A stretch of DNA of 52,520 bases, taken from positions 40,928 through 93,447 of the forward strand of contig MU271320.1 in NCBI GenBank assembly GCA_021432655.1, read 5' to 3'. The notes beneath the pieces are model-generated. The model searched no databases. It was given only the letters and a program-made list of their open reading frames with translations, and was not told where the DNA came from. The translations under genes were made by a program, and so were the position numbers. This document shows positions 32,301 to 52,520 of this stretch, in pieces. Numbering within the stretch: the stretch's first letter is position 1; every line of letters starts with the position of its first letter. The DNA comes from Atractiella rhizophila. Lineage: Eukaryota.

Positions 32301-35300
32301 GAACACCTCATCACGGAGTTGGTGCATCAAAGGGATGTCCTGAGAGATATTGAGAAAGCAGACCTCTCCATGGGCAAAAACAGCTTCGCCTGGCTTTACC
32401 ACATGAGGTTCTATCACGATCCCACGATTTCCAATTCTCTTGATCGCCTCACTGTTCGCATGGCCAACGCTGTCTTCCCATACGGCTATGAATACCTTGG
32501 AGTCCCGGAAAAACTTGTCCAGACGCCGCTGACGGATCGCTGCTATCTTACCATGACGCAGGCTCTGGATCAACGACTTGGTGGTTCACCTTTCGGTCCA
32601 GCGGGAACAGGTTTGCACTCTTTTCTAGCTCGTTATGATGTTGCTGACATTTTCTATAGGTAAAACGGAGTCCATCAAAGCTTTGGGGGTGCAACTAGGC
32701 CGTTTCGTCATAGTATTCTGCTGTGACGATACTTTTGACTATCAAGCAATGGGACGTATCTTAGTGGGATTGTGCAAGACTGGACATTGGAGTTGTTTTG
32801 ACGAGGTACGCAGCTGAACAGCAACCGAACGATGGCTGATCCACGGAGCAGGTCAATCGACTGAGCGAAGGCACTCTCAGCGCCGTCTCCCAGCAAATTG
32901 CGGACATAACATCTGCGCAAAGAGCCCGTACAAACCCGACAAGCAGCGCCATTGTTCAGCTTGCTGGAAAGGAAGTAGACGTCAAATCGGAAACCGCTAT
33001 CTTTGTTACCTGTCAGTGGATTTTCTTTACCCGGAGGTTTTGTTGACCAGACTCACAGATAATCCCGGTTACGCAGGACGTTCTAATCTCCCCGACAACC
33101 TGAAGAAGCTTTTCAGGAGCATGGCTATGACCCATCCAGATCGTGAACTCATTGCTCAAGTCATGTTGTTCTCTCAAGGATTCAGAACCGCCGAGAGACT
33201 TGCGTCCAAAGTAGTGCCTTTCTTCAACCTCTGTTCCGAACAGCTGTCGAGTCAGCCGCACTATGACTTTGGTCTTCGAGCCCTCAAGGCTGTCCTCACG
33301 AGTGCTGGACAACTGAAGCGAGAGCGCATCGCTAATCCAACAGATGCTTCCCTCGCGACGTCTAACGATATTGTAGAGCAGGAAATTGTAATCCAGAGTG
33401 TCACGGACACCATTGTCCCAAAATTGGTGGCGGATGATGTCCCTCTCCTTACCAGGTTAGTTACACCTGACTTGGACTCATTACCAATCTCACGAGAGTT
33501 GCAGCTTACTTTCAGATGTATTCCCTGGTATTGATTATCGACCTGTCGATCTAGAGAAACTTATCCAACACATTTCTGACGTTTGCAATCAGCAGCATCT
33601 TCAAATGGGCGAGATTTGGTTGCACAAAGTTCTACAGCTTTATCAGATTCAGAATATCCAGCACGGGTTGATGATGGTTGGTCCAGCTTCGACAGGAAAG
33701 AGCAAATCTTGGAGCGTACTTCTCCAAGCCATGGAAAGACTTACTGGTGTTGAAGGTGTTTCTTACGTTATTGACCCCAAGGCGATTTCCAAAGATGCCC
33801 TCTATGGGACCCTTGACCCCACCACGAGGGAATGGACTGACGGACTCTTTACAAGTATTCTTCGCAAGATCATCGATAACGTCCGAGGAGAGAGTTCTAA
33901 GCGACACTGGATTATCTTCGATGGTGATGTTGATCCAGAGTGGGTGGAAAATCTCAACAGGTAAGCAACATTTTAGATTTTTGACAGGTCTCATAACGAC
34001 TGGTTCCAGTGTTCTTGACGATAACAAACTCTTGACACTTCCGAATGGTGAACGCCTCAGCTTACCCCCGAACGTGCGCATTATGTTCGAAGTCGAAACG
34101 TTGAAATACGCGACTCTCGCGACGGTCAGCCGCTGCGGCATGGTGTGGTTCAGTGACGACGCTGTTACCCCCAGCATGATGTATCGCCATTATTTCTCTA
34201 ACCTCCGGAAAGTCGCCATCGATGCAGCAGATGATGAGCTGACCGCTGAAGGACTTGGACGTGTCGCAGAAGGTGAAGACAACCATTTAGCTACTCAATC
34301 ATCAATCGCCACCATCTTGGAGCAACACTTTCAGGAAGATCAGCTGGTGCCGAGAGCTTTACAGTATGCCGCAACCGTGGATCACATCATGGAATTCACT
34401 GCCAGTCGAGCACTCACTACGCTCTTCTCCCTCCTGAACAAGACCGTTCGAAACGTTCTTGAGTACAACACGACACATCCTGACTTCCCTCTGCAACTCG
34501 AACAGATCGAGTCTTATGTCCAGAAACGACTTTTGGTCTCCATAGTCTGGTCATTCACCGGAGATTCCAAGTTGGATACAAGGATGGGGATGGGTTCTTT
34601 CCTCAGAGAGAACTGCGGTTTAGATTTCCCTCCACTTGGGCCGGGTGCCTCCTTAATCGATTACGACGTTCAAGTTTCCAATAGCGACTGGATTTCGTGG
34701 CAGAATTCGGTACCTACGATCGAAATCGAAACCCATTCTGTCACAGCACCTGACGTGGTGATTCCTACTCTCGACACAGTTCGACATGAAGATGTTCTTT
34801 ACGCCTGGCTCTCCGAGCACAAGCCATTGATGCTTTGCGGTCCTCCCGGTTCAGGAAAGACTATGACATTGTTCAGCGCTCTACGAAAACTTCCAGACAT
34901 GCAGGTCATTGGACTCAACTTTTCCAGTGCCACCACGCCGGAGCTCGTTCTCAAGACATTCGAGCAGCATTGTGAATACAGAAAGACCCCCAATGGAGTT
35001 ATTCTGTCTCCATCTCAAGTCGGTCGCTGGATTGTCATTTTCTGTGACGAGATCAATCTCCCTGCAACTGATAAATACGGCACTCAGCGCGTTATTTCAT
35101 TCATTCGTCAGCTTGTCGAACAGAATGGATACTGGCGAACGTCGGATAGAGCTTGGGTCAAACTTGAACGCATCCAATTTGTTGGAGCTTGCAATCCTCC
35201 TACAGATCCTGGCCGAGTGCCTCTCACCCAACGATTCCTGCGACATGCTCCGCTTGTCATGGTTGACTACCCTGGAGAAGCCTCCCTCATTCAGATATAT

Positions 35301-38300
35301 GGTACATTCGCAAGAGCGTTGCTCAAAGTCATTCCAACCCTTCGGGGCTACGCGGAGCCTCTCACTGCTGCCATGGTGGAGTTCTACCTCGCCTCTCAAC
35401 GGAAATTCACCGCTGATATTCAAGCCCATTATGTCTACAGCCCCCGAGAGCTATCGCGCTGGGTCAGAGGTGTCTTCGAGTCCATTCGCCCCCTAGAAAC
35501 CTTGTCGGTCGAGGGTTTGGTTCGTGTATGGGCGCATGAGGGACTTCGTCTGTTTCATGACAGGTTGGTGGACGAAGAAGAGCGAGTTTGGACCGTCGAC
35601 ATGATTGACGCCACTGCCCTCAAACACTTCTCTACCATAGAGAGAGACGAAGCTCTTGCCAGGCCAATTCTGTTTTCCAACTGGACCTCCAAATTTTATG
35701 TTTCTGTCGACAGAGAGGAGCTTCGAGAGTTTGTTAAGGCCCGACTAAAGGTGTTCTATGAAGAGGAACTCGATGTCCAACTTGTACTTTTCAACGATGT
35801 ACTGGACCACGTCCTCAGAATTGATCGAGCCTTCAGGCAGGTGCAAGGGCACATGCTCCTTATTGGCGTCAGTGGTAGTGGAAAGGTATGTGTCTCCCAG
35901 TCAGATGACAGAATTAATGTAACGTCCCCAGACAACACTATCTCGGTTCGTTGCTTGGATGAACGGTCTCAGCGTTTTCCAAATAAAGGTCCACAATAAG
36001 TACACGGGAGATGATTTCGATGAAGATCTTCGAACTGTTTTACGACGAGCCGGGTGCAAAGGAGAGAAGATTTGCTTCATTATGGACGAGTCCAATGTTC
36101 TGGATTCTGGATTCCTGGAGCGAATGAATACTCTCCTCGCCAACGCTGAGGTCCCTGGTCTATTCGAAGGTGACGAATATGCTGCTCTCATGACCAGTTG
36201 TCGAGAAGGAGCTCAGAAGGACGGATTGATGCTGGATACACCCGATGAGCTGTACCGATGGTTTACGACTCAGGTTGCCAAGAATCTTCACGTCGTGTTT
36301 ACTATGAACCCTCCAGAGAGCGGATTGGCATCAAGAGCTGCTACTTCGCCAGCCCTTTTCAACCGTTGCGTCTTAGACTGGTTTGGAGACTGGTCAGATC
36401 AAGCATTCTATCAGGTTGGAGCCGAGTTCACGCAGACGCTCGACCTGGATATCGCTGGCTACGCTCCGCCCATCAACTTCCCTATTGCTTACAGGCAGCT
36501 TGAGCTCCCACCCGTCCATCGAACTGCCGTCGTCAACGGTCTCGTGGCTGTTCATCAATCCATGTATGAGACGAATACCAGGTTGAGCAGGCGTCAGGGT
36601 CGCTTCAACTATGCTACTCCTCGACATTATCTCGATTTCATCAAACATTATGTCCGTTTGTTCAACGAGAAGCGCGACGATCTTGAAGAACAGCAGCGAC
36701 ACTTAAACGTTGGACTGGACAAGTTGAAATCTACTGTGCTTCAGGTAGAAGAGCTGAGAGGTAGTTTAGCAGTCAAGAGAAACCAGCTGGAAGCGAAAAA
36801 TGCGGAGGCGGATCAGAAACTTCAAAGGATGCTTATAGACCAGCAGGAAGCCGAGCAGAACAAAAAAGCCTCGGAGGAAATTCAGGTTGCTCTGAAGCAG
36901 CAGCAGAAAGAAATCGCAGAACGTCGAGCTGTTGTACTAGCTGATCTCGCGAACGCGGAACCTGCCGTTGTCGAAGCACAGCAAGCGGTGAGGGACATCA
37001 GAAGGCAACATATACAGGAAGTTCGAGCCATGGCCAACCCTCCAGAAGCGGTGAAGAATGCCATGGAATCTGTTTGCATCATCCTAGGAAACAAGATCGA
37101 AGGATGGAAGTCTGTCCAATCGATTCTGAGGCGAGACGACTTTACTGCTACGATTGTTAGTTTCGACACCTCCGCCAAGATGACTAAAAGCCTGCGTGAT
37201 AAAATCAAGCACGACTACCTATCAAATCCCAACTTCAATTTTGAGACAGTCAACCGTGCTAGTCGAGCTTGCGGTCCTCTTGTCAAATGGGTGATTGCTC
37301 AAGTTGGCTACTCTGAAATCCTTGATCGCGTGGGCCCTCTGCGTCAAGAGGTGCAATCGCTGGAGGACCAAGCCAATGGCACAAAACAAAAGGCCTCTCA
37401 CATCATTACAATGATCAAGGATCTTGAGGCCAGCATCGCGCGTTATAAGGACGAATATGCCGCCTTAGTTCGAGAAACCGAGGCCATCAAGCAAGAAATG
37501 GAAAGAGTGCAGACAAAGGTGGACCGAAGCATCACTCTTCTTGACAGTTTAGGATCCGAGAAGTCGCGTTGGGAAGGCGGGAGTCGAACATTCGAAGCAC
37601 AAATGGCCACTATTCCGGGAGACGCTCTTCTCTCCGCTGCATTCCTGGCATACGCGGGTTTCTTCGACCAACAGTACCGAGAGAATATGTGGGCTAGCTG
37701 GGCGAATCATCTCACTGATGCAGGGATTAAATTTAAAGCAGAGCTCTCGTTACCTGAATACCTGTCCACTGCAGACGATCGTCTCGGCTGGCAAGCGAAA
37801 TCCCTCCCAGTTGACGACCTTTGTACGGAAAATGCTATCATGCTCAAGCGCTTCGATCGTTACCCACTGATCATCGATCCATCCGGCCAAGCCACCACCT
37901 TCGTAATGAACGAGTACAAGCAGAGGAAGATCGCTGTCACCAGCTTCTTGGACGACGCATTCCTTAAAACGTTGGAAAGTGCTCTGCGTTTTGGAACGCC
38001 ACTGCTCATACAAGATGTGGAGCACCTTGACCCAATCTTGAACGCCGTGCTGAACAAGGAAATCCGCAGAGCAGGTGGCCGAGTCCTCATTCGCTTAGGC
38101 AGTCAAGATATTGACTTTTCTCCATCATTCATGATGTTCCTCTCCACCAGGGACCCATCCGTCAACTTCTCTCCAGATATATGTTCACGAGTGACCTTTG
38201 TCAACTTCACCATGACCCGTGGCAGTCTACAAAGTCAGTGCCTAAATGAAGTTCTCAAAGTCGAACGACCAGATACGGATAAGAAGCGAACAGATCTTAT

Positions 38301-41300
38301 GAAGCTGCAGGGCGAATTCCATCTCCGACTCAGGCACCTTGAAAAGCTGCTCCTTCAAGCATTGAACGAATCATCTGGCAACATCCTAGATGACGACAAA
38401 GTCATCGACACCCTGGAAACTCTGAAAAAGGAGGCTGCGGAAGTCAGTCGGAAAGTAGAGGAAACTGACTTAGTCATGGCAGAAGTTGAACAAGTGACTT
38501 CAGTCTACCTTCCTTTGGCACAAGCTTGCAGCAGCATCTTCTTCGTGCTAGATCAATTGGCACTTTTGCACCACTTTTACCAGTTCTCTCTTGGCTTCTT
38601 CCTGGACATATTCAGCTTTGTCTTACATCGAAACCCAGGCCTCAAAGGAGTCACAGATCCCAATCAACGTCTTTCCATCCTCAAGCGTGACATCTACCTT
38701 CAGACTTTTAAGCGGACGGCGCGGGCTCTCCTGCACACAGATCATCTCGTTTTGGGAATGTTGTTAGCACAAGTCAAACTTCGTAGCGAGCACGGATCCT
38801 TCAACGAGACAGAATTTGGATATCTTCTGGATTCAATCAGAGCTGCTGCTTCGTCTGACAAACCTGCTCCGGGTGCCTTGAATACGGACCAAGCGGAAAA
38901 GGTCAACTCTTTGGCGGAGCTGCTCCCATTTAAGGAACTACGTCAGCAGTTAGGGGCGGATCCGGAGAAGTGGAAGACGTTCTTTGATTCAGAAACACCA
39001 GAGACGGTTGTTCCAATTACTTGGGAAGATTTAGATGGTACGTGTCATCGGTAGTCGAGCTACTTGGCTGATAGTCGCTGCAGTCGTAGGAGTCAGCTTA
39101 AGAGAAGCGCTCTTGATGAAATACCTGCGACCGGATCGTCTCCTGCAAGCAGCTGATCGGTTCGTGCAAACTGCGTTTGGCCAAGACATCTCTGCAGAAG
39201 CCGCGTTCGACCTTGAGGAAGTTGTTACTCAAGAAGTTAAAGCCACGCAACCTATCTCTTTGGCATCGGTTCCTGGGTACGATGCTAGTTATAAAGTCGA
39301 CAATATCACAGTCTCTGTCGGAGCGAGATGTGCCTCTATTGCGATGGGTACCGCTGAAGCGACATCACAAGCTGATCAGGCGATAGCAGCTGCAGCACGA
39401 ATGGGTAGCTGGGTCCTGTTGAAGAATGTTCATCTCGCTGTGTCTTGGCTCGGTCAGTTGGAGAAGAGGCTTCAGAGCATGCAGGCGAATCCCAACTTCC
39501 GCCTTTTCCTCACGATGGAAACAAATCCGTCTATTCCGGTCAACATTCTTCGTCGCTCTTGTGTTGTGATGAACGAGCCGCCGCCGGGCATTCGAGCTAA
39601 TATGGTGGACTCTCTTCAGTCGATTCCAAGTGGACGTCTATCTTCCGGTCCGGCGGAGAAAGCAAGACTCTACTTCTTGCTTGCCTGGCTGCATGCTGTC
39701 TTGCAAGAAAGAATGCGATACGTACCCTTGGGCTGGAGCAAGGCCTATGAATTCAACAATTCAGATCAGGAGTCGACGCTCAATACCATCGACAAGTGGG
39801 TAGATACGGCAGCTCGGGGCAAATCGAATCTAGCACCGGAGGCAATACCTTTCCCTGCCATCAGAAGTCTTATCAAAGAAGGTGCGCTTGAGACACTTGA
39901 ACTGCTAATATTGTGGCTAAATCATCCTCATCAGCCGTCTATGGAGGACGAATCGATCGTGCAGTGGATCAAGCTCTGTTAGACGGTGTGTCGTCTCCTT
40001 CCATCTCCGCAGTGTAAGCTGAATTATTTTGTAGCCTTTGTTGACCATTTATTCCAACCCGGAGCTTTCGAGAATAATTTCAAGCTTGTCAGGGATACTG
40101 ATCTTGCAGCGCCGGAAGGAAGAACGCTAGCTGACTTTTTATCTTTCGCGAGAAACCTCCCAGAGCGAGAACCTCCTTCTTGGCTCTCTCTTCCCGTCAC
40201 CGCCCCTGCTGTCATATCAACCGGTCAAGGTAAGTAGTTCTCGGAGCTCTCATCCGTTGCTCAAAGTAGTGCAGGTCGCGATATGTTGCAGAAAGTTCTG
40301 AGGATGCGCAGTCTCGATGACGACGATGGTGCGGCTGGAAGTACCACCAAGACGGCAAGCACACAACCTGCCTGGATGCGCCAAGTGGAATCCGATTGCA
40401 AGAAATGGCTGGACATTCTCCCCAAGGTGAGGGATGATATCTTCGTGATTTTCTTTCTGATATATTATGGCAATAGGGAGTTCCAACCATGACCTTTTCA
40501 GACATCCATGACCCTCTAGCTCGTTTCTTCGTGAGGGAGTTGCAAACTGCCAAGAAGATTCTTGGACGCATCAGGAAAGATCTCGACGACCTCATACTAG
40601 TTTGCGAGGGGGAGCTTAAGCAAACCAACGATCTCAGAGAATTGCTGTCCAATGTCAACAAAGGTTTGTCCGCACATTGCCAAGGCATCGATCAAGCTGC
40701 TGAGCTACGCTGTAGGAATTGTACCCAATCACTTCCGTCCGTTCAAGATCCAAAGTCTTCCTCTCAGCGACTTCATCAACGACTTCGTATCTCGCCTTCA
40801 ACAGTTGGTCATGTTGTCAGAGACTGGCATCGAGGCGGATATCTGTCTCGGGAAGCTGTTCTTTCCACAATCGTACATCACAGCTACTCGTCAAAAGATC
40901 GCTCGGCAGACGAAGGTCTCGCTAGAGACGTTGAAGCTTGAACTCGACCTGGAATCATCCCAGCCATCAGTTGGCTTCCGTGTAGCAGGTGAGACGATTT
41001 GTTTCCGTCGAAATACGCGCTGACCGTTAATCTTACAGGCTTGTCTCTAGAAGGAGCGGTATGGAACGGTTCAAATTTGGAGATGAACAATGGAGACATG
41101 ATCCCATTGAAACCGTCTCAGCTGAGGTGGGTTGAGGGCAAACGTGGCGAAAGTGACGAGCGAGCTGTAAGTGATACTGCTGGGTACAAAGTACTTTTTT
41201 GACTGATGCAGCAGGCTGTTCCGGTGTACCTGGATCCTACTCGCTCCGAGCTACTTTTTGTAGCAAGATTACCAGTAACGAAAGGGGCAGAGAGTTTGAT

Positions 41301-41331
41301 GATAGAGAGAGGCGTGGCGATTTTTGTTTGA
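26384..41331 (+). CDS. DYN1: Cytoplasmic dynein 1 heavy chain, single unsplit gene
   Basis: Tail ([11 protein letters not shown]), linker, four P-loops ([32 protein letters not shown]), stalk/MTBD, AAA5-6 ([18 protein letters not shown]) and a C-terminal ERGVAIFV*. Confidence 0.97.
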
Positions 41332-41550
41332 TGGATTCCACTTTTCATGTTTATTTGGTTTGGTTATCACGTTTTGTTTCGCATTTTTAACGGGGTCATT
41401 TTGATTAATGTATGATGAAATGAACATATTCCGTTTACACGAGCACTCAAGCAGTAACTTGATCACTCACGTACAGTCACAGATGGAAGTATAGACGCAT
41501 CCCTGCGACTTTATTTGCGACGTCTGTTTGACAAAACAGGGTAGGCGAGA

Positions 41551-42543
41551 TCATCCACGAAACCATACCCTCCACCAACCGAGGTAGCCGCTCAAGCCCA
41601 ACGCCTCCACTACAGTGATGGCCACTGCTGTTTTGGCTTGTAGCGATCCATTCCAGCAGTAAAACGAGAGTACTGAGCCAGAAGCGATAACTGATGCCCA
41701 CAACAGAGCTCCACATCGCATCGCATATGTCCTTCCGTTGATGAAGTCATCTTTGTCGTTTAATCGCGGAAAGGGTACATCTGGGACCGGAACGTCAAGG
41801 AAAGTGCAGAGTGGTTCCCAACCTTCGGAGATTGAGTATACGAGGAGATTTTCTTTCGGTATTGCGAGCGAAAGAATATGGTTTTTGTAAGCAGAAATTG
41901 ACGAGGGTGTCATCCAATAGTTGAGCGCTGGACCGGGAGACCGCGTTCGAGTGATTGAGAGTATTAATTTGACCTGATAATAAAGGCTGTAGGAAGGATG
42001 AGTCTCAGGATTTGTGAAAGACAACCAGACTCACTTCGGGAACCAAAATGTCAGCAGTGTCCACAATGGCATGTTAATCATCATCCATCCGATCGTCTCA
42101 TTAAAGCTTTTTCTCCACTTATCCTCGTCCCTCGTCATCAAGATGACTTTCACCTTTTCCATACCTCGAGCCTTCACGATCCACTCCACCGAACTCGCGG
42201 TAGGCTCATCAACCGCACTTCCATATCCCCTATAAAGGTCTGCGAACCCATCGACGTCGCGCCCATTCGAGTCTCTGATCGCGTCGTGCACTCTGATGAA
42301 GTCACGCGAACGTCGCCAGTCCCTCGTACAAACAGCCATATGATGGCACGGTCCGAAGCCTAGAATCTCCAGGGCCACCTTCAGTGAAGAAGTCCCTGAC
42401 CGCGGTGGAGTCGCGCCAATGACACGAAGAGTGGAAGGAGACGCGGCATGATCGTATGGAGGAACTTGTTCTGGCTCTGCCAGAGGAGTCCAAAACCGGT
42501 ATGGGGCTGCTGGCACCATTGATGAACAAGCAGTCAAAGGCAT
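41551..42543 (-). CDS. P-loop sulfotransferase-like protein (Sulfotransfer_4-type) with C-terminal hydrophobic segments, 2 exons
   Basis: RVIGATPPRSGTSSLKVALEILGFGPCHHM and EGWEPLCTFLDVPVPDVPFPRLND. A GT-AG intron near 41988-42035 joins the two ORFs. Confidence 0.85.
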
Positions 42544-43035
42544 GTTTCTGCCCCAGATTCAGGCATAACTCAAGGCAGCCTCTGGCTTATAATGACGAAT
42601 TTCAACAACGGCCTTCGGATACGGAAATAGAGGCGAAAGACTAGGACTACATGGATTCAGAGCGCTCTGCTACAGGGAAGAAGAGCTGCGACCGATGCCC
42701 ATTGTAAACTAAACAAAACTGGAACCTGCAAAGGTAGGGACTGGCCGAAGGAGCATCAAGGATTTTGATGGCGACGGAGTATCAGAGGCGAGAATACGGA
42801 GAGCAAGACTCAGAGTTTGTAGAGTGACTGACAATTTACAAACTCCCAAGTCCAAACAGGATCGCTAAACAATAATTTCTCACCGCTCAATTTCCTTTTT
42901 TACGGAATATAATGTCACCCGTATTTTGACATTCCTTCTCTCTCTGTGCCAGTGCTCTTTAGCAATCCAGACATTATTTTGTGGTACTGCAACGTTGACT
43001 GACCCCTTGACTGTATAAATAAATGGATGAAGTTA

Positions 43036-43144
43036 GACCAAATTTTCGCCCGCTACGTCGAATGTTTCGGCTGTTACGTCCGAATTTTGGTCCAAAATGC
43101 AGCCGTAACTACGGGGACGGCTGTAGTCACAGCTGTAGTCAGCC
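43036..43144. repeat. Nested direct and inverted repeat cluster, candidate transposon left (sub)terminus
   Basis: GACCAAA...TTTGGTC inverted pair enclosing two copies of TTTCGnCnGnTACGTC(C)GAAT, then a CAGCCGT/ACGGCTG inverted pair and GCTGTAGTCA twice. Confidence 0.6.
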
Positions 43145-43858
43145 ATCGAGCTGAGATCAATCATCTAAGAGAATCTGGCAGTGGAGGAACATGCGTCGCA
43201 ACATATGGCATCAAATGTATGTCTTCTATTACTTCTTTCCCTTCCCTCTCGTTGTAGCGCACACCCATCGAAATCCATAATAATTACCTTCGTCTTTGCC
43301 AGGATCCAAAGACAGCGCCGTCCTCACTGACTGGAGCAACTCTCGTACAAGCTAACATCTTCCATTTTTGCCAGTGTCCGCGTCCTTCGACCCACTCTGT
43401 GATTCCTCACTCCGCTTGCTCGCCATTCTGTTCGCCCTTCTGTCCTCCACCACATTCCTGTCCTGCTGTTATGGTTCCGGTTTGGCTCTCCTCTCTTGCG
43501 CCACAGTTCAACTCTCTTTCCTTTCTCCCCGGCTCAAATTGCTCCGAAACTGTTCGGATTGGGACATCGATTGATCCTTTGTCCTGCTCGCAAAGTGATC
43601 CATGTTCTCCATAACCAACTGGCATACTCCACGAGCTCCGAACTGAACATCACGGCACTCGTACACAGCAGAGCAAAAGAGGAGGACACCGAATGGTATA
43701 TCTCATCCTTTCTACTAATGCTGATATTGTGTGCCTGACCTTGTTATCTGACCTTATTTCCTTCCTGATTCAGATGTCGGTGACAGGGCAAGTGTTCTTG
43801 AGATCAGCCAGCCCAAACTTCCCGAAATATCTTATTGTCACACGGTCATCAGAATACA

Positions 43859-44203
43859 GCATTCGATATTGAAGACCTTCTTTACGGTTTTAAAGCTTTG
43901 ACATTGAATCGAATTTCTAGTCCCAACAGTTGGCGACAGGCGGCAACGTCCTCGAGATCCGGTGCGTGAGGTGTAAGACCATTCACCAAGTCACCACTAA
44001 TCAGATTTGTGCTACAGTGACCGTGGCTGAAGTCTTAGAGTTTCAGCTTCAGAAGATGGCCGACCCCAAACCTGCCTCCACCTCTTCAGGTTCTATGTTA
44101 CCAAATGAATTTCTCTGTCCAACCATGCTGGTACGTTTCCTCTTCGCCTAGCTTCAGTTGCACTTATTGAGCGCATGCTCAGCAAGGGATAGCTGATTGC
44201 TGA
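43859..44203 (+). CDS. Small spliced orphan ORF (partial model; 5' exons unresolved)
   Basis: FDIEDLLYGFKALTLN...SSRS joins in frame, via a GTGCGT...CTAAT...ACAG intron (43962-44017), to VTVAEVLEFQLQKMADP...PTML. Another intron then leads to QGIADC*. Confidence 0.3.
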
Positions 44204-44521
44204 TTAAATATACGCTAACGTTCGTCCTCCTCATTTCAAATAAATAGCAAGCCTGATGTCACAATGTAGCTCACTGACTGTTTTGTGCAATGATCATTAC
44301 GCTTCCAATCAGCCTACCTCTTGCTCGCGCACATTTTCCACCTTGTGAGAACATTGTGGAACTTGACTACATTGAGCTTCACAGCTTAATTAAGTTGGAG
44401 CTGTTGTGGTGAATGAGTGAAACACTCACTGTTCCAGAAGCAATGATGCCAATCACATTGACACATATATGGCTTGGTTCTCTCCCAAGCTGTACTTTTC
44501 TCCCATTCAGCGTGCGCTATT

Positions 44522-47500
44522 ATGTCCCTCAGATCTTTAGAAACTTTCATTACTAAACGGAATGTTCAACAGCATGACATTCCCAATACAACGCCAACTG
44601 TTGAATTACCAAACCACTCTACATTCCCATCAGCTCGCCTTTTTGCCACCAGACCAAGCAGCTTGTTCAACTCCTCTACGGTCCGCGATCCAGCAGCTTC
44701 TGCACAGGAATCGAATAAACCAAGGCACTCGTTACTTGACCGCCTATTCGCTAGAGTTCAAACAAAAAGTCCACCTCAACCTTTAGACCTCAACACGCTC
44801 TCTGCTGTTCGCACGAATTCCTTCCTCTCGCGGCTTGAAGCTCTTACTCGACAACAGCCAAAGATGTCTCGGCCGCTTTTAATCAAGGATGTCCTTTCGT
44901 CAGAGGAGGTATTAAACTCCACCTCTTTCTTCGCAGATTACCTTCATCTTTCCGAGGCACAAATGGAGGAAGTTGATGCACTTTGGAGGAGAATGCTCCG
45001 TGGAGAAGTGGGATACCGTCGCTTTGATAGATATACGTTTGTTATTCAAGCCACCGAAAAACGCCAAACTGAAAAGGCAAGATCCTTCCACTTAATAGTG
45101 CATCATGCTGCTTAACAGATGTTTACTCAGGCTCGTTGCAATTATTTCCAAATCAAAGTTGGGTACAATTCCTTTCCGGAGGACCTTCTCAGTCAGTGCA
45201 CTATTGACACCCAACGTTTTGCAGCCGCCTGCAATTGCCTCGAATATGGTCGCAATGCAAGTGGATCTCATTACTGCCCTCATGTCGGTGTGGTCGTGAA
45301 GTATATCTTTGACGCAACGGGGGGAGAGGACCCTCCAACATTTCATGGTCTGTATTTTCTTCTTTATCGCTACGGTCAAGGCTCAGTTTTACGCATAGCT
45401 GAAACCCCACGCATTCGATTTGTTCATTATCAGCTCGAACCTCCTATGCTCACCTTTGCTATGCGCCGTGCTTTAGATAGCACGAAGAATGTTTCCGGAA
45501 AGCTTTGTTTCGTTTCCGGTTTAGGACCTGGATTGTGGAGGTGCAGCAGCTGTTCTGGAGCCAACTTTGCACGATGTCCGCACATTCAGCCTGCCATCCA
45601 GCTCACTTCTAGATTTCTTGTTGAAGATGAACAAAAGGACGAAGTTTATCAGCTAGCTGACTTGGTTCTTAGCTCTCCCGGAACGTTTGATGCGACAGAT
45701 ACGAAGGGATTTCACTTTGACATTTCCTCCACGATCGAGGCCCCCCGATCCTGCCGGCGCCTCCCAGCCAGCGTTTCTCTGACCAGAATCCCTCCAGCTC
45801 CTTGGATTGCTTTGCCAGAAGACACTAACAAGTACCCGCGGCCAGAATTTTTCACTCCGACTTTGCTGCCCAGCCACTTTCCATATGACAGTGATGGTTG
45901 CTGTTGTGTTGACAGTTGTCGAGCAAGAGGCAGCGATTTGCCTTTTTTATCCGCTCTTTCTCAAACTGAGTTATCCGAAGCAATTTTATTTACCACATTA
46001 GGAGCTCGCAAAGTCACAATTGGAACAAGACGCTGTGTATCCAAGAATTGCACGAAAGGCAGCATAGGACCAGATCAGGTTGCTTATTGCATTCTGAATT
46101 ACAATAACAAATTCTTATTCACTCACGAACTTCTAGTTTCATTCCTTCTTGCCTCTCGCCAATCTATGACGATTAATGGCGAGTACTGGAAAATGCAGAG
46201 CATCTACAAAAACCATGCGTCGCCTTTTGACCTTCCCAGTTTTCCGGTCATTCTTGCAGCCTACTATCGCTACTTGGACCTCCTTGATTTTAACGAACGC
46301 TTTCATTGTCCACTCTGTCCAAACGATAGCTATAAGGTCGTGGGAGGCGATGGCAAAATGTCTGGTTCCTACAAAGATCTATTCACAGCTGAACTTCAAC
46401 CACCGAGCAAACCAAATCCAGACTTTCCAGATTACACCAGGCTACCACCAACTAACATTCGCATCTGTTTACCTTGGATTTCTCTGTCGAATCACCTGAA
46501 AGCACTATTAGGAAAAGAAGCTGCTCAACTTCGAATTCCCATCAAAGCTGAAGACTGGAAATCTTTAGCTAATGCACTTCTCGACAGCTTGAAGCAGAGG
46601 AAGGCATCCACTTTAAACCTGCCTGTTATCACACTACCTTGCCTTGATTCCCGCCTCGTCCAAGCCATAGCTCCTAGGGTTAGGAAGGTAGAGAAGATGC
46701 AGGACGTGTCAGAAGGAGCAAGACAAACCAAGACACGGAGTACAAAACAAGATCTCATTTACGATCAGGATCAGAACAATCCTGAAGATGCAGACCGTTT
46801 GTCATTCGGACAAATCAAGGGTCCAGACATGGACTCCCTGTGGCTTGCTCTTCATGGGTTGACAGCAATGGCAATTATCATGTCAATGGACCCTACAATT
46901 GATGGCACGATTTTTGTGAACCCAGTTCGTGCATTCCAAGCCAAACTTCGCATCCTTCTTGAAATCCTGACCTCTCCCGATTGGATCACACAAGTGGTCG
47001 CCGATGATCTATTACCTTGTCTGCAGGCTCTCACTAACGAACAACTGCAAGACCCAACATTGTCTAGCAAAAAAAGCTGGCTATTAATACTCCGGATCAA
47101 GCAACAGTTTCCATCTTACGGCGATATTCTAGAACACGCGAAGCTAGCTGAAGAGGCTACGATCAAGAAGAGCATTCCAGCCTTTGCGTCTTTGGCTGCT
47201 TTTTTTGTTTCCAGGCTTCAATCTTTTCAAAATTATCTTGAGAATTGCAAGGATGACCAGACCCGAAGATTTCCTCGCCTCCCTCAGCTTTTACCTTGCT
47301 CTACCACACAAACTTCAGTAGTTGGACCGCTATATGAGCCGGATGGACCTGATGGACCTTACCACACTCAACTTTTTGAGACAGCCCAGCCTAATCCAAT
47401 CTACAGTGGATACGAGTACTTTTTGCCTAAAATTCGTGAACGCCCTTTCTATGCCAACTTTATCAACGATGGTCAGCAAGATTCTCCCAGCGACAACTTA

Positions 47501-48046
47501 GGAGCAGGTTGTCCATCTAAAGAGTTTGACAAGGAAACCAAAAAGAAGCGAGATAGGACTGGCGGTGTCTTCATCTTATGGTGCTTGCTCCACGGTTTCT
47601 GCCTAGGATTTCATCTTATCCCCAACCATGAGGGAAGAAATGACTTTTTCTCTGTTCTGTTCTGCCATTTCCTCATCGCTCCCGACATCATCGTCTACGA
47701 TTATGCGTGTCAGCTGCATCGGTATTGCATGGCCAGGGAGTATCAATTTTTTCGGAAGAGTCTTTTTTTAACCGATGAGCTCCATGGAATCAACCACGTT
47801 TCCTGCTCCGCTGCGACATTGCTAGCTCATTACATGGCCACTAATCCATCATATTATGCTATACGCAGCTCTCTCTGTGAGGTAGGAAACTTGACTGTCA
47901 AAAAGATCGAAAAATCTCTGTCTTTCATGCATCAAGAACAAGCCAATCGCTATCTTCGCATTCATCTCTTGATTCACAATCGAATTTTATTACTTCGTTC
48001 TCGTGGAGCCAGTCACTTCCCACCTGCGACTGGTCTAGGATCATGA
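44522..48046 (+). CDS. KDZ-superfamily DDE transposase (SWIM fingers, CxC4-like cluster, KDZ RNase H-like core; HMGXB3-related type), about 1160 aa
   Basis: SWIM-like CNC..CPH and CSSC..CPH; CxC4-like C..C..IGPD..LNYNNKFLFTHELL; CPLC..VVGGDG; TGGVFILWC.HGFCLGFH.IP..EGRNDFFS; IIVYDYACQLHRYCMARE; TDELHGINHVSC; SSLCEVGN. The upstream ORF is joined by a predicted GC-AG intron at 45077-45118. Confidence 0.88.
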
Positions 48047-48138
48047 TGTATTACGATGTAAATTTACATTCTGATCAATGAATACGATGTACAAATCAAG
48101 AGAAGAAGAAATATAAGAACATGTACTGCCGTAAGTAA

Positions 48139-49197
48139 TCAGGGCGATTCCTGACTAGAGCCTGGCGCGTCAGGACCGGTGCGCAATTGATCTTGGTTCA
48201 TAACAACCTGTATCAACCTCAGTACTAGGTATGGTCTAGAAGAAAGGAAGTTACTCACTTCCTCCCAATTTGTAAGCTTAGCTCGCATCGCACTACTGGC
48301 TGCTACCGCTTCATCTGCATTTTTAGCCCAATATGCAGACGCTTTCTGAGCGACATAACCTTTGATAAGGTTCTTGAACATTGGGAACTCCTCATCCGAA
48401 GTGAACACAGAGGAAGCTGTGATGGTAATGGCATTTTGTACGATTTCGCGTAGTTCAGCGTCTGTTAGCACCCTGGCATCACGAAGAGCAGGAGGAGGAT
48501 CGGCGCTGGGAATGTAACAATTTACGTGAGTATAGGTTTGGGCTTAAAGAGAGGAGAGGACTTACGGAAATGCAACAACCAGCATATTCCCATTTGACGT
48601 ATGCTCATACTTGGGCAACTGAAATCAAACATTCTTAGTGTAAACATCAAAATGAAGGAGTATAGTCCACACCTTACTCTGCAAGCTTGCCATTGTACGG
48701 TTGAAAGAGCGATCTCTTTCTCCAGGAGTTGAGAATGGTTGTTCTCTTTTTCTCTTGCGTGGAGTCGATGCCGGAGATGCGGGTGGTGTCACAGCAGAAC
48801 CAGAGGAAAGAAATGGATCGATGAGATTATTTTCCCATTTAATGACAGCAAGACGAGATGGAGAGACATAGTCTGCGTCGTAAGGATCTTCTCCAGCTTC
48901 TAATCGCACTATTACTGCCTTCAGATCGTTGCGAAATCTTTCCGCCCCAGAACAATTGTGATGGCGGCCCTTCTCTAAAACACCCAGGTAGACCCAACAA
49001 GCAGAGCATTTGTAAGTCGCTTCGAATGCTTGGGCTTGGAGGAAGGGAATAGGAGGTTCTACTCGGTTCGTATAGGCTGGAAGGAGGTGTTGCCATTGTT
49101 TTGCTAGCATAGTGAGTTTGACAGACTCAATCTGCTGTAGATTTGGATAAGCTGCCCCTATAGCTTGCCCTGGCAGAGTGGTGGAGGAGGACGGCAT
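48139..49197 (-). CDS. Orphan putative nuclear protein with CxxC...H..C zinc-ligand motif and NLS-like PRKRKR (4 exons)
   Basis: Exons join in frame through GT-AG introns (...LQSK|LPKYEH...VAFP|ADPPP...VLTDAELRE...NWEE|VVMNQ...). The motif is YKCSACWVYLGVLEKGRHHNC. Confidence 0.65.
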
Positions 49198-49506
49198 ATC
49201 AAATGATTATACAAGACGTGCAAGAAGTGAAGCCTCAGTGTAAGAAGCTAGAAGTCAAACTGTCAGAATAAGTCATTATCAGGAGAGAATAACGTACAAG
49301 TTGCCAAAACAACGTTACACCACACAGCTAATTGAAGGTAGGGGAATCTTGGGGTAGTTGGCTTTGTTGGTAGCAGGGAGCAATTCTGCGGGAAGGGTTG
49401 CGGATCCGAAGTTGCAAAATAGGGGAAAAGATCATAATCTACCGCTCTAATCCTGCCGATATAAAAGACATCTGATCTTTATATTTCGCTTTACAGGATC
49501 CCTGTC

Positions 49507-50905
49507 ATGGCTGTCCCATTCGATATTCGCAAACATGACATTTCATCCACATTAGGGAGTACCATTTTTTTCAGCTACGAGAAAGAAGATGGAAACACTT
49601 TCATCTGCCGCAGGAAGGTTACAGGATACGAATCGTATAGCAAGGTCGCGGATCTGGAGCGGGTAACTGTTAGGACATGGGACGGTTCACGGAATCTTTG
49701 GCGTGTTCTTGTCGGCAAAAGAGTTGATTATTGCCTCCACGAATTCTTCGACGATTGCGACGCCCACATCAACGACGGTTGCAGAGCAAGAAAGCATTAC
49801 AAGTCTGATCGTCATCGTGCCACGGACTGGGTGGAGGAAGGGAATCAAGGGAGGCAGCATCTTCTTCCTCTACTCCCTGAGGTGAAGAAAGCAAGGAATA
49901 CTGCTGCTAAAAGAGAGTGCGTTTAATGTCTCCTGTAATAAAACGCGTACTCAATATGTATATTTTAACAGATCTCGGGCACGACAAAAGAACAACTGCA
50001 AAAAAATCGAAGACGATGTCTACGCTTCAGATGAAGACGAAGGAGGTGATTTTGCCGGCCCTCTTCCCTCTGCCATTCTTGCGCGCCAGATCTTTGATTC
50101 GGAGGAGAAACTGCAAGGCAACCAGCTCTGCCAGCTCCTCAATTCTTTTCGTAGCGACAGGAAGGCATTCGAGATAATTGCCACTAAGGCGGTCATCGAC
50201 TTTGAACCTCCTGAAGGACGTCATCGGTGGCTCCTCCTCCTTTTATTCAGAACGATCTTTTCCCCTCTGTATCAATATGTTCCAATCTCACCTCTCTCCC
50301 CTCTTCTACGTTATCCTTGGGAAGGGGGTCATGCGATTGACACAGAAAGAATGGCAGAGGACTTAGCCGTCAGCCTGCATTTTGACAAGGATAAGAAGGA
50401 GAGATTGGAGGAAGTAAAAGAGGAGCTAGATGACATGGAATATCGCTGGTTTACGGATATTCTCGATAGCAATGCGGTCCTGATCCGCAAGATGCAACGT
50501 TCATGGATGGCGTGGAACTTCCTGCTTCACCTAGATCCGCTTTCCGACTTCCCCAACGATCTTGGTCTTACTACCAGAAACACGACGGCTCTTTACGAAT
50601 CCATCTCCCAACGTGCCCCTCCTCCTCTTATCCCCCGCATCACGTCATCCAACGATCTCCAGCTCACCACGAAAGCTGAAGCTCTCCTTGCATCTCAACC
50701 GCAGCGAAATGGAGCGGTCCGGAGGAGGAACGTCACCTTACCAAAAAGGAGGAAACCGGTAAATCAACCGCATAGTCCAAAGTGTCAGTCCCCCTCCACC
50801 TCCTCATTATCCGATCTAACCGATAGCAATCCAACCTTGGCTCCTACAAAAGTATTGAGCAAGCTGCGACCAAAGGCCCATCGCATAGCAGCAGGTCACG
50901 TCTAA
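49507..50905 (+). CDS. Orphan protein with a C2H2-like zinc motif and a GCN4-like basic region lacking a zipper (about 448 aa, 2 exons)
   Basis: The intron at 49917-49971 (GTGCGT...AACAG) joins the 49507 ORF to a frame that stays open through the 50351..50905 ORF, creating KKARNTAAKRESRARQKNNCKKIEDDV. Confidence 0.7.
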
Positions 50906-51369
50906 CTGTACGAAGCAGAGGAAGGTAAGGCATTATTTATATTATTTTAGAACTTGGTAATCGTTCATATTCCTTCTCTTTCTGCGTTTATTCTCGTTTA
51001 TGTCATCTTGTCGATATGTCTTGGTCCTACACATTACACTTTCCGCTTATGGGCTTCCGCAAGGATGGAATAGTGTAGTCAGGGTATTTCACTTCTTATT
51101 ACTTGAACACATCTTGGTACATGTTGAAATAATGATCGCTCATTTTATTAATTGCAGACATAGAAGACATGACAAATCAAAATACAATAGAGAAAGATGT
51201 GATAACAGGTTCAACAAGAAAGACAGAAAGGGAAGCGAACATCAACAGGCTGGAGTACATGACCATCTGAAGGTCTGTAAGTTATAAATTTCAACATCCA
51301 ATGAGTGGGACAAAAGCTTTGTCATGAGGTTTGAGTAAGTGGATGAAACTGTCACAGGAAGAGACAACG

Positions 51370-51511
51370 GTGCTGAAAGTAGAAGACAAAACACAACGTC
51401 TTTGAGATTGGAAACACAAATCGAGTGACAAAGGAATGGTGTGCTGAAAGTAGAAGACAAAACACAACGTCTTTGAGATTGGAAACACAAATCGAGTGAC
51501 AAAAGAATGGT
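51370..51511. repeat. Tandem duplication, 2 x 71 bp with one mismatch
   Basis: The unit GTGCTGAAAGTAGAAGACAAAACACAACG...GACAAARGAATGGT starts at 51370 and again at 51441. Confidence 0.95.
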
Positions 51512-51674
51512 CTCCCACATCGAGGTCAAAAACACAGAGACAACAGAAAAAGGATGGAAGTTCGAAAGACAGAAGTAAAGGGAACGTCACAAACAAGGTA
51601 GGCAGTCCCCCTAAAAGGCAATGCAATCAAATCAGGCAGATAGTCTATTGTCAAAGGTCACCACTTATCCCATC

Positions 51675-52441
51675 CTAGCGCAAAATAGGCGTCTTGGGCG
51701 GCAGAGGTAGATCGTCCTTGACAGAGAAATGCCCACGCAATACCTTTGCGTTCTTGGGGATCGAAGGTGGCCAAATCGATTCGGCTGTGCGGTTGGCCAC
51801 GAGCCATGGTAGATGATCCTCCATCTGGACAGGCCAAAAACAGTCCCCCGGACTAAGCGAACAATCAGCAACATTGTCAAGTAGCAAAGACGGGAAGGAA
51901 GTGCCTACCCGAGGAGTCGGAGCAAGATGTAGCGGCTTTCCACAAAATCGACAATCTTGTGACAGGAATAGCTGAGCTTGGAGAGAGCTGGGCATAGGAG
52001 GAACAGAGCTTGACCTATTTGGATTCGGCGCGGCTCGTTGGAGAAACATCGGGGCACTTGGACACTGAGGGACGGTAGGTAACGGTCCTGGTGAAGAATG
52101 GAGAAGCGATGTGGGCAACCCTTTTTCCATATCAGGCCCAATGTATTAAAGTATGAGTAAAACATACCCGTCGCACGAGCATCCAATTCGCTCAACACTA
52201 TCACTTTTCCCACCTTTTTCTTCCTAGCCAAGGGACTGCCTCGATTAGTAACATTTGAGGCAGACAAGGATCTGCGCAGCTCGATCGTTGGGAATGGAGA
52301 GGCTGAAGCAGAAGAAGAGGCAGGGCAGTATGACCGTTGTGAGCGCAAAGACCGTTTCTCCACTTGTCGCAGTAGAGCCTCTCGACGTTGTCGAAGCTCC
52401 GAACGGGAGGGGGTAGAAGGGGGACTATTCAGTGTAACCAT
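51675..52441 (-). CDS. Orphan Ser/Pro-rich basic protein with CRFC...H...C motif (2 exons; start may lie further upstream)
   Basis: The intron at 52121-52167 (GTATGT...CTGAT...AAG) joins ...LDARATG to LPTSLL... in frame. Contains RKKK and DCRFCGKPLH. Confidence 0.55.
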
Positions 52442-52520
52442 GTCCTTGGGCTTGATCAATATGTTGGGCCTGGTCCTGGGTGAATGAATGTTGGAATGTT
52501 GATGTTGCTTGTGATTCTGA

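What the first reader, a model, noticed from the sequence alone, without database searches (positions are those of the whole stretch)
43036..52520. Candidate large KDZ transposon carrying a cassette of orphan zinc-finger/transcription-factor-like genes
Seen: after 42.5 kb of conserved genes come a repeat-dense boundary, an uninterrupted KDZ transposase, and three tightly packed spliced orphan genes. Each orphan has a Cys/His cluster and basic NLS-like patches. The first ends about 90 bp from the transposase stop, and the first two share a divergent promoter of about 310 bp. Established: fungal KDZ transposons are linked to TET/JBP and chromatin-protein cargo. No TET/JBP motif is visible in this window. 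Inference: this is an element of more than 9 kb with a distinct regulatory cargo set, possibly controlling its own expression or host chromatin.
Basis: partly seen in the sequence, partly recalled or inferred. Interest (0 to 1): 0.82.

Follow-up and report, generated by a model that had tools for sequence, protein, structure and literature searches.

The report
KDZ transposase gene beside three orphan genes
A real transposase gene of the fungal KDZ type lies next to three real but uncharacterised genes in an Atractiella-like fungus, but nothing shows that they move together, and KDZ elements with extra unknown genes are already known.

Summary
A KDZ-type transposase gene runs from 44522 to 48046 (Pfam CxC4 at 55 bits; the KDZ core scores below cut-off). 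Three phase-consistent spliced genes follow: O1 (48139-49197, minus), O2 (49507-50905, plus) and O3 (51675 to beyond 52520, minus). The stop-to-stop gap is 92 bp and the divergent spacer is 309 bp. A true repeat boundary lies at 43010-43014.

O1-O3 match no Pfam family, so the 'zinc-finger/TF-like' label has no support. The boundary repeat looks like a roughly 365-bp MITE, not a proven KDZ terminus. No TIR partner or convincing TSD lies in the window.

The window matches a 93,447-bp Atractiella rhizophila contig. A second KDZ + O2 pair lies on a 46,698-bp contig. However, the isolate carries two versions of the whole region, including the conserved flank, at similar difference density. The window itself looks like a flattened consensus. 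The second copy is therefore more likely the other allele than a transposed copy.

Cargo status is unproven. Cryptococcus KDZ1-3 and KDZx1 already show 6-11 kb KDZ elements with extra domain-less ORFs. Verdict: new member of a known kind, modest interest.

The parts
41551..42543 (-). Sulfotransferase-like flank gene, the last conserved gene before the segment
   Evidence: Pfam Sulfotransfer_4 on both exons. 100% match to P0005 (314 aa, KAH8923511.1, contig 93447).
43010..43376 (.). MITE-like multi-copy repeat with ACTG...CAGT ends. The inverted core is 43021-43036 against 43352-43367.
   Evidence: Contig breaks and at least 4 foreign left flanks at 43012-43014; other-copy matches end by 43379. 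Inverted core with 2 mismatches in 16. The ends pair in a DNA fold, but the fold energy is not unusual, z -0.97. 0 of 3 foreign flanks tested occur in the window.
44522..48046 (+). KDZ-type transposase gene, about 1150 aa. ATG at 44522. Intron of about 45077-45130 covering the in-frame TAA at 45113. Main exon runs to the stop at 48044-48046.
   Evidence: ORFs, sequence, annotated relative P0001.
45863..46225 (+). CxC4 cysteine cluster module of the transposase
   Evidence: PF18717 at E 9.7e-15, 55 bits, residues 250-370 of ORF 45116-48046.
47525..47806 (+). Divergent KDZ catalytic core, below the Pfam cut-off
   Evidence: PF18758 at 16.9 bits and 19.7 bits, E 7.4e-4, on the last 215 aa. Cut-off is 26.6.
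48139..49197 (-). O1, orphan gene of about 298 aa. Exons 49197-48673, 48618-48566, 48505-48259 and 48207-48139. Convergent with KDZ, 92 bp between the stop codons.
   Evidence: Phase-consistent GT..AG model read from the sequence. No Pfam, no Atlas hit, AF2 pLDDT 41.
49198..49506 (.). 309-bp divergent spacer between the O1 and O2 start codons
49507..50905 (+). O2, orphan gene of 424 aa. Exons 49507-49916, 49972-50783 and 50853-50905.
   Evidence: 100% match to P0002 and 1 real difference to P0003. X3 contig piece 49972-50783 with 0 differences. No Pfam; Atlas scores below 0.8; AF2 pLDDT 39.5.
51370..51511 (.). 71-bp tandem repeat, 2 copies, between O2 and O3
51675..52520 (-). O3, orphan gene with its 5' end cut by the window end. 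Introns 51853-51908 and 52120-52166.
   Evidence: Spliced joints in X3 contigs. The frame stays open across both introns for 252 codons. No Pfam.

Best explanation
The segment holds a resident, low-copy KDZ-superfamily transposase gene. It has a CxC4 zinc-chelating module and a divergent KDZ core. A small MITE-like repeat lies upstream, and three ordinary-looking, spliced, lineage-restricted genes of unknown function lie downstream.

Shown: the gene models, the domains, spliced transcripts of O2 and O3, the repeat boundary, and a second KDZ + O2 pair in the assembly.

Inferred: the sequenced isolate is heterozygous, and the whole region, conserved flank included, exists in two slightly different versions. 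The window is a flattened consensus of them. The second KDZ + O2 pair is then the other allele, not a transposed copy. One version seems to end the transposase before its catalytic part. On this reading the KDZ gene is an old insertion or relic fixed at this locus. If a KDZ element survives here it would work like other KDZ elements: the CxC module binds the ends and the DDE-type core performs cut-and-paste. At most the tightly abutting O1 would belong to it, as the extra ORF does in Cryptococcus KDZx1. O2 and O3 are more likely host genes than cargo.
For: KDZ identity: CxC4 at 55 bits plus a sub-threshold KDZ core.

Low copy: only 1 related protein of 536-1708 aa among 7523 candidates, and the O2 cluster has only 2 members.

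The window lies on the 93,447-bp contig. The sulfotransferase P0005 (KAH8923511.1) and O2 P0002 (KAH8923514.1) are both 100% matches on it.

Heterozygosity:
- X1 and X2 come from one sample but disagree at 35639, and X1 holds both letters at 39817.
- The window letter is the alphabetically earlier one in 72 of 80 (X1), 73 of 85 (X2) and 44 of 49 (X3) differences. The same holds for 12 of 13 inferred base changes against P0001.
- The density of visible differences is alike in the conserved flank (34 in 7160 nt) and the KDZ stretch (22 in 5964 nt).
- An allele-like sulfotransferase fragment, P0009, lies on a separate 7,400-bp contig.

P0001 stops at ...KKK, just before the catalytic part, where the window has CGA.

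O2 and O3 occur as spliced transcripts in X3.

No TIR partner, no convincing TSD and no internal copy in the window.
Against: - KDZ and O2 co-occur on a second contig, three accession numbers apart (KAH8917813 and KAH8917816). No sulfotransferase copy at 90% identity or more sits on that contig. That is what a transposed unit would look like.
- The X2 junction unitig 42963-43041 has about half the depth of both neighbours and does not rejoin. The other version therefore differs structurally from 42993 on, which could be an empty site.
- The packing is tight: 92 bp and 309 bp.
- All four genes are restricted to this lineage, and the segment starts exactly where the conserved genes end.
- Experimentally mobile Cryptococcus KDZ elements of 6.4-10.9 kb do carry extra domain-less ORFs (bioRxiv 10.1101/2024.08.15.608186, passages read).
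- The right end may simply lie beyond 52520.
- Depth figures are not copy numbers, by the tool's own warning.
Confidence: 0.45

Rival explanations
1. One KDZ transposon of 9.5 kb or more starts at about 43010 and ends beyond the window. It carries O1, O2 and O3 as passenger genes, as Cryptococcus KDZ1-3 carry extra ORFs. The 46,698-bp contig holds a second, transposed copy.
For: Second KDZ + O2 pair with two annotated genes between them. No sulfotransferase copy at 90% or more on that contig. Sharp multi-copy boundary at 43012-43014. Tight packing. O2 has no homologue outside this species in a word-based search, 1 cluster among 1992 candidates. Known 9-11 kb KDZ elements carry domain-less ORFs.
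Against: Only two versions exist, with a difference density like that of the conserved flank. Divergence is uneven: 22-23 differences in 43.7-49.7 kb against 0-1 in 49.65-52.5 kb, which is unexpected for one transposed unit. The boundary repeat closes on itself as a roughly 365-bp MITE. No TIR partner or TSD was found. No other close KDZ protein was found.
Confidence: 0.2
2. A shorter, KDZx1-like element of about 6 kb holds only the transposase and O1. It ends in or near the O1-O2 spacer, and O2 and O3 are flanking host genes.
For: KDZx1 is 6,397 bp with a CxC4-type KDZ gene plus one unknown ORF, 8-bp TSDs and no TIRs. O1 abuts the KDZ stop at 92 bp. The difference density drops at the contig break 49648-49677. 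O2 and O3 occur as spliced transcripts.
Against: No 7-9 bp duplication pairs the left boundary with the 49.2-49.7 kb zone, apart from chance-level 7-mers. The break at 49648-49677 lies inside O2 exon 1, not in the spacer. No SWIM domain was found. There is no evidence of mobility.
Confidence: 0.2
3. The KDZ gene is a domesticated or relic transposase without element structure, like the Cryptococcus KDZ-domain proteins that lack TIRs and TSDs. All neighbours are unrelated host genes.
For: The KDZ core is below the Pfam cut-off. No ends were found. The gene sits at a single locus. Such relics are reported in Cryptococcus.
Against: The CxC4 module is retained. The amino-acid differences between the two versions (13 in about 983 aa) and a probable premature stop in one version look like relaxed constraint rather than a conserved host function.
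Confidence: 0.15

Closest known systems
Cryptococcus neoformans KDZ1, KDZ2 and KDZ3 (bioRxiv 10.1101/2024.08.15.608186; passages read)
   Same: Basidiomycete KDZ elements of 9.2-10.9 kb. Each has a CxC-type KDZ transposase plus extra ORFs without predicted domains.
   Different: Those elements have 8-bp TSDs and long TIRs (236 bp in KDZ1), a CxC1 module, several copies and observed transposition into FRR1. Here the module is CxC4, no ends or TSD were found, only two versions exist, and no mobility is shown.
Cryptococcus deneoformans KDZx1 (same preprint)
   Same: CxC4 plus KDZ transposase with one adjacent unknown ORF. No TIRs detected. About 6.4 kb, which is close to the distance from the boundary repeat to the O1-O2 spacer.
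   Different: KDZx1 has a SWIM domain and 8-bp TSDs and was seen to move. Here no SWIM domain and no TSD were found.
TET/JBP-carrying Kyakuja, Dileera and Zisupton elements (Kojima 2025, PMC12730594; abstract and sections 3.1 and 3.2.1 read)
   Same: KDZ transposons that carry a passenger gene. Dileera forms occur in Pucciniomycotina.
   Different: No TET/JBP domain was found in 88 ORFs. The 7-bp (Kyakuja) or 8-bp (Zisupton-1_PGr) TSDs and CA..TG termini reported there were not found here.
KDZ-domain proteins without TIRs or TSDs in Cryptococcus, possible relics
   Same: A KDZ-like gene with no detectable element ends.
   Different: Those proteins lack the CxC module; this one keeps CxC4.

Membership tests
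KDZ (Kyakuja-Dileera-Zisupton) DNA transposon | N-terminal CxCn zinc-chelating module in the transposase | tested here: met
   PF18717 CxC4 at E 9.7e-15, 55 bits, cut-off 26.9.
KDZ (Kyakuja-Dileera-Zisupton) DNA transposon | KDZ transposase catalytic domain (PF18758) | tested here: inconclusive
   16.9 bits on the whole ORF and 19.7 bits, E 7.4e-4, on the last 215 aa, against a cut-off of 26.6. Only profile positions 60-163 of 217 are matched.
KDZ (Kyakuja-Dileera-Zisupton) DNA transposon | Defined termini (TIRs or CA..TG) flanked by 7-8 bp target-site duplications | tested here: inconclusive
   No inverted partner of the 43012-43036 terminus occurs anywhere in the window apart from 43352-43367. 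Only chance-level 7-9-mers are shared with the right side. The right end may lie beyond 52520.
KDZ (Kyakuja-Dileera-Zisupton) DNA transposon | Several copies or insertion polymorphism | tested here: inconclusive
   There are two versions in the assembly. Whether they are allelic or transposed was not resolved. The junction unitig at half depth hints at a structural difference.
TET/JBP-carrying KDZ element | A TET/JBP dioxygenase gene inside the element | tested here: not met
   0 of 88 ORFs of 50 aa or more in 42.4-52.5 kb match a TET/JBP family at E<=0.001.
Zisupton-type domain structure (CxC4 + KDZ + SWIM, as stated in the preprint) | SWIM zinc finger | tested here: not met
   No SWIM hit at E<=0.01 on the whole ORF or at E<=1 on the last 215 aa.
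Zinc-finger or transcription-factor proteins (O1-O3) | A recognisable DNA-binding or zinc-finger domain | tested here: not met
   0 of 6 queries hit any Pfam family at E<=1. Atlas gave no hit for O1 and scores below 0.8 for O2. AF2 models had pLDDT 39.5 and 41.4, too poor to search.
MITE (for 43010-43376) | Short, multi-copy, with terminal inverted repeats and a TSD | tested here: inconclusive
   Multi-copy: at least 4 foreign flanks. Inverted core matches 14 of 16, with ACTG/CAGT ends. No matching TSD is visible next to the ends (sequence).

The most novel reading that the evidence does not exclude
A Zisupton-like (CxC4) KDZ transposon of 9.5 kb or more in Atractiellomycetes carries three transcribed, domain-less genes as cargo. 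It is present at two different loci, or hemizygous, in one heterozygous isolate. That would make it a gene-shuttling KDZ element outside Cryptococcus and the mushrooms.
Probability: 0.17. Interest if true: 0.45.

Novelty: new member of a known kind. Interest (0 to 1): 0.25.

Why it matters
If the unit were shown to move with O1-O3, it would add an early-diverging Pucciniomycotina lineage to the few cases of large KDZ elements that carry extra genes (Cryptococcus KDZ1-3). It would also provide three expressed passenger genes to test for a role in element control.

As it stands, this is a routine annotation result: a KDZ transposase gene or relic beside orphan genes. There is also a technical caution. 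The window seems to be a flattened consensus of a heterozygous genome, so 'intact' ORFs and 'second copies' in this assembly need phased data before they are read as biology.

Tried and rejected
- Earlier findings of this scan: nothing by place, sequence or words.
- Metagenome scans found nothing: a KDZ protein search gave 56 pattern matches with 0 confirmed, and a 26-nt terminus pattern gave 0 matches.
- The near-length search with the sulfotransferase exon missed the species' own 314-aa protein because of the length limit, and found only a 50% relative, P0004.
- Exact look-up of 10 single-exon Met-to-stop translations from 44.5-52.4 kb found 0 of 10 in the collection. The proteins annotated between the sulfotransferase and O2 could therefore not be identified.
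- Structure: AF2 single-sequence models of O2 (pLDDT 39.5) and O1 exon 1 (41.4) were too poor for a fold search. Atlas gave nothing usable.
- Rfam and tRNA scans of 42.0-52.5 kb found 0 hits.
- TSD candidates were judged to be chance, and each falls inside a coding exon: CTTGACTG at 47890, CCTTGAC at 51716, TGCAACGTT at 50493.
- No RNA holder is listed for the stretch.
- X3 contigs left 44527-47861 without cover, and cover at 47862-49195 was only 0.8-2.9. This says nothing firm about KDZ or O1 expression.
- Depth was considered as a copy-number guide and set aside, following the tool's warning. KDZ stretch against flank: X1 366 against 318-347, X2 241 against 224-249. Right part: X1 228-249, X2 165-169.
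- Iyer et al. 2014 (PNAS) is not held. What is said about it here comes from Kojima 2025 and from recall.
- The supplements of Kojima 2025 (Table S1, Data S1) and of the preprint were not opened. They may list element termini that bear on the comparison.


Full report
WHAT IS THERE. The window carries conserved genes up to 42.5 kb: acetyl-CoA carboxylase, ribosomal proteins, a dynein heavy chain at 26.3-41.2 kb, and a Sulfotransfer_4 gene at 41551-42543 on the minus strand. To the right lies a 976-codon frame at 45116-48046. It has a Pfam CxC4 module at E 9.7e-15 and 55 bits. Its match to the KDZ transposase domain is below cut-off: 16.9 bits on the whole ORF and 19.7 bits on the last 215 aa, against 26.6. 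The gene starts at ATG 44522. The in-frame TAA at 45113-45115 lies in an intron of the annotated relative P0001. 'Uninterrupted' therefore holds only for the main exon.

THE THREE NEIGHBOURS. O1 (49197 to 48139, minus) has four exons with consistent phases. O2 (49507-50905, plus) has three exons and equals the 424-aa protein P0002. O3 (minus) runs off the window end and stays open across two introns. The contigs of run X3, whose kind is not on record, carry GT..AG-bounded skips throughout the conserved genes, so they behave like transcripts. They carry both O3 introns (51853-51908 and 52120-52166). They also carry an O2 piece that starts and stops exactly at predicted splice sites, 49972-50783.

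ARE THEY ZINC-FINGER OR TF-LIKE? Cys/His clusters and basic patches can be seen in the translations. However, full-length O2, two O1 exons and three O3 exons gave 0 of 6 Pfam hits at E<=1. Of 88 ORFs of 50 aa or more in 42.4-52.5 kb, only 1 hits any family at E<=0.001, and that hit is CxC4. No TET/JBP domain, other transposon domain, Rfam family or tRNA was found. Atlas look-alikes were below 0.8 for O2 and absent for O1. AF2 models were unusable, with pLDDT 39.5 and 41.4. The functional label is unsupported.

THE BOUNDARY. Public DNA contigs (X1, X2) break at 43013. At least four different foreign sequences join the window at 43012-43014 (table 7). Zero of the three that were tested occur elsewhere in the window. 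This is a true multi-copy repeat edge. Matches from other copies stop by about 43379, and extra cover is confined to bins left of 43860. An inverted core links 43021-43036 with 43352-43367 (14 of 16 bases), with ACTG/CAGT at the tips. The simplest reading is a roughly 365-bp MITE-like repeat at 43010-43376, 1.1 kb upstream of the KDZ start codon. It is not a proven KDZ terminus. No inverted partner lies further right. Shared 7-9-mers that could be TSDs are at chance level and fall inside exons.

COPIES. The sulfotransferase (P0005, KAH8923511.1) and O2 (P0002, KAH8923514.1) are 100% matches on one Atractiella rhizophila contig of 93,447 bp, so the window lies there. A second pair lies on a 46,698-bp contig:
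- O2' (P0003, KAH8917813.1), with one real amino-acid difference.
- KDZ' (P0001, KAH8917816.1), with 13 real differences in about 983 aa. Its model ends at ...KKK, just before the catalytic part.

No other related protein of 536-1708 aa was found among 7523 candidates. No sulfotransferase copy at 90% or more sits on the 46,698-bp contig. An N-terminal fragment, P0009, lies on a 7,400-bp contig. It matches 48 of the 51 aligned residues, and its tail reads in another frame of the window.

ALLELE OR TRANSPOSED COPY? Several facts point to a heterozygous isolate.
- X1 and X2 come from one sample but disagree at 35639, and X1 holds both letters at 39817.
- The window letter is the alphabetically earlier one in 72 of 80 (X1), 73 of 85 (X2) and 44 of 49 (X3) differences. 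The same holds for 12 of 13 base changes inferred against P0001. That pattern is expected if ambiguous sites were flattened to their first letter.
- Visible differences are about as dense in the conserved flank (34 in 7160 nt) as in the KDZ stretch (22 in 5964 nt). They nearly vanish right of 49.65 kb, with 0-1 differences.

The flank and the KDZ stretch thus both exist in two versions. The second pair is most simply the other allele, assembled redundantly. The uneven divergence across the proposed unit also argues against one recently transposed block.

Against this reading, the X2 junction unitig 42963-43041 has about half the depth of both neighbours and does not rejoin. The other version therefore differs structurally from 42993 on. 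The alternative flank fragment and the alternative KDZ copy also sit on different contigs. I could not resolve this without the assembly.

COMPARISON. Large KDZ elements with extra domain-less ORFs are already documented and were seen to move: KDZ1 (10,944 bp, 8-bp TSD, 236-bp TIRs, three genes), KDZ2, KDZ3 and KDZx1 (6,397 bp, CxC4 + KDZ + SWIM, one unknown ORF, no TIRs). This comes from bioRxiv 10.1101/2024.08.15.608186, passages read. TET-carrying Kyakuja, Dileera and Zisupton elements have 7-8 bp TSDs (PMC12730594; abstract and sections 3.1 and 3.2.1 read). Neither literature search listed work on KDZ elements in Atractiella (listings only).

VERDICT. The KDZ call is right. The cargo model is possible but not shown, and the only co-occurring copy is probably allelic. 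This is a new member of a known kind, of modest interest.

Noticed in passing
window 32521-52520 (whole laid stretch): Differences between the window and public contigs are strongly directional. The window has the alphabetically earlier base in 72 of 80, 73 of 85 and 44 of 49 places for X1, X2 and X3, and in 12 of 13 changes inferred against P0001. This looks like a heterozygous genome flattened to the first letter at ambiguous sites, so ORF intactness in this assembly may be partly artefactual.
   Followed up: partly
window 47540-47550: P0001 ends at ...KKK, where the window reads AAG CGA. A single C-to-T change would give TGA, so the other version of the transposase may be truncated before its catalytic part. 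This is inferred and was not seen in DNA.
   Followed up: partly
window 43196-43614: A possible small spliced Cys-rich ORF: ATG at 43196, GTATGT intron to 43257, then frame 43258-43614. It overlaps the MITE-like repeat. An X3 contig from another genomic copy shares the same start motif (loose end at 43204), so this may be a small expressed multi-copy family.
   Followed up: no
window 49648-49677: Both DNA runs break their contigs here, inside O2 exon 1. The density of differences and the mean word depth both drop to the right (X1 366 to 249, X2 241 to 165). The cause is unknown. It could be a heterozygosity boundary or a structural difference.
   Followed up: no
window 42300-49700 versus a 7,400-bp contig of the assembly: The contig holding the sulfotransferase fragment P0009 is 7,400 bp long. 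That is about the distance from where the fragment's model ends (about 42.3 kb) to the contig break at 49.65 kb. It may be the alternative version of exactly this stretch.
   Followed up: no
window 51370-51511: A 71-bp tandem repeat, two copies at 98-99% identity, between O2 and O3. It breaks the public contigs at 51399-51474.
   Followed up: no
window 45077-45130: The first KDZ intron implied by P0001 would have a GC..AG boundary in the window. The second gap in that model is only 33 nt, against 45-56 nt for introns confirmed by X3 in neighbouring genes. The annotated model may be imperfect.
   Followed up: no
window 42818-42910: The intergenic stretch between the sulfotransferase and the repeat carries small indels in the public contigs: 1 nt and 7 nt left out, and 1 nt put in (table 4).
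   Followed up: no
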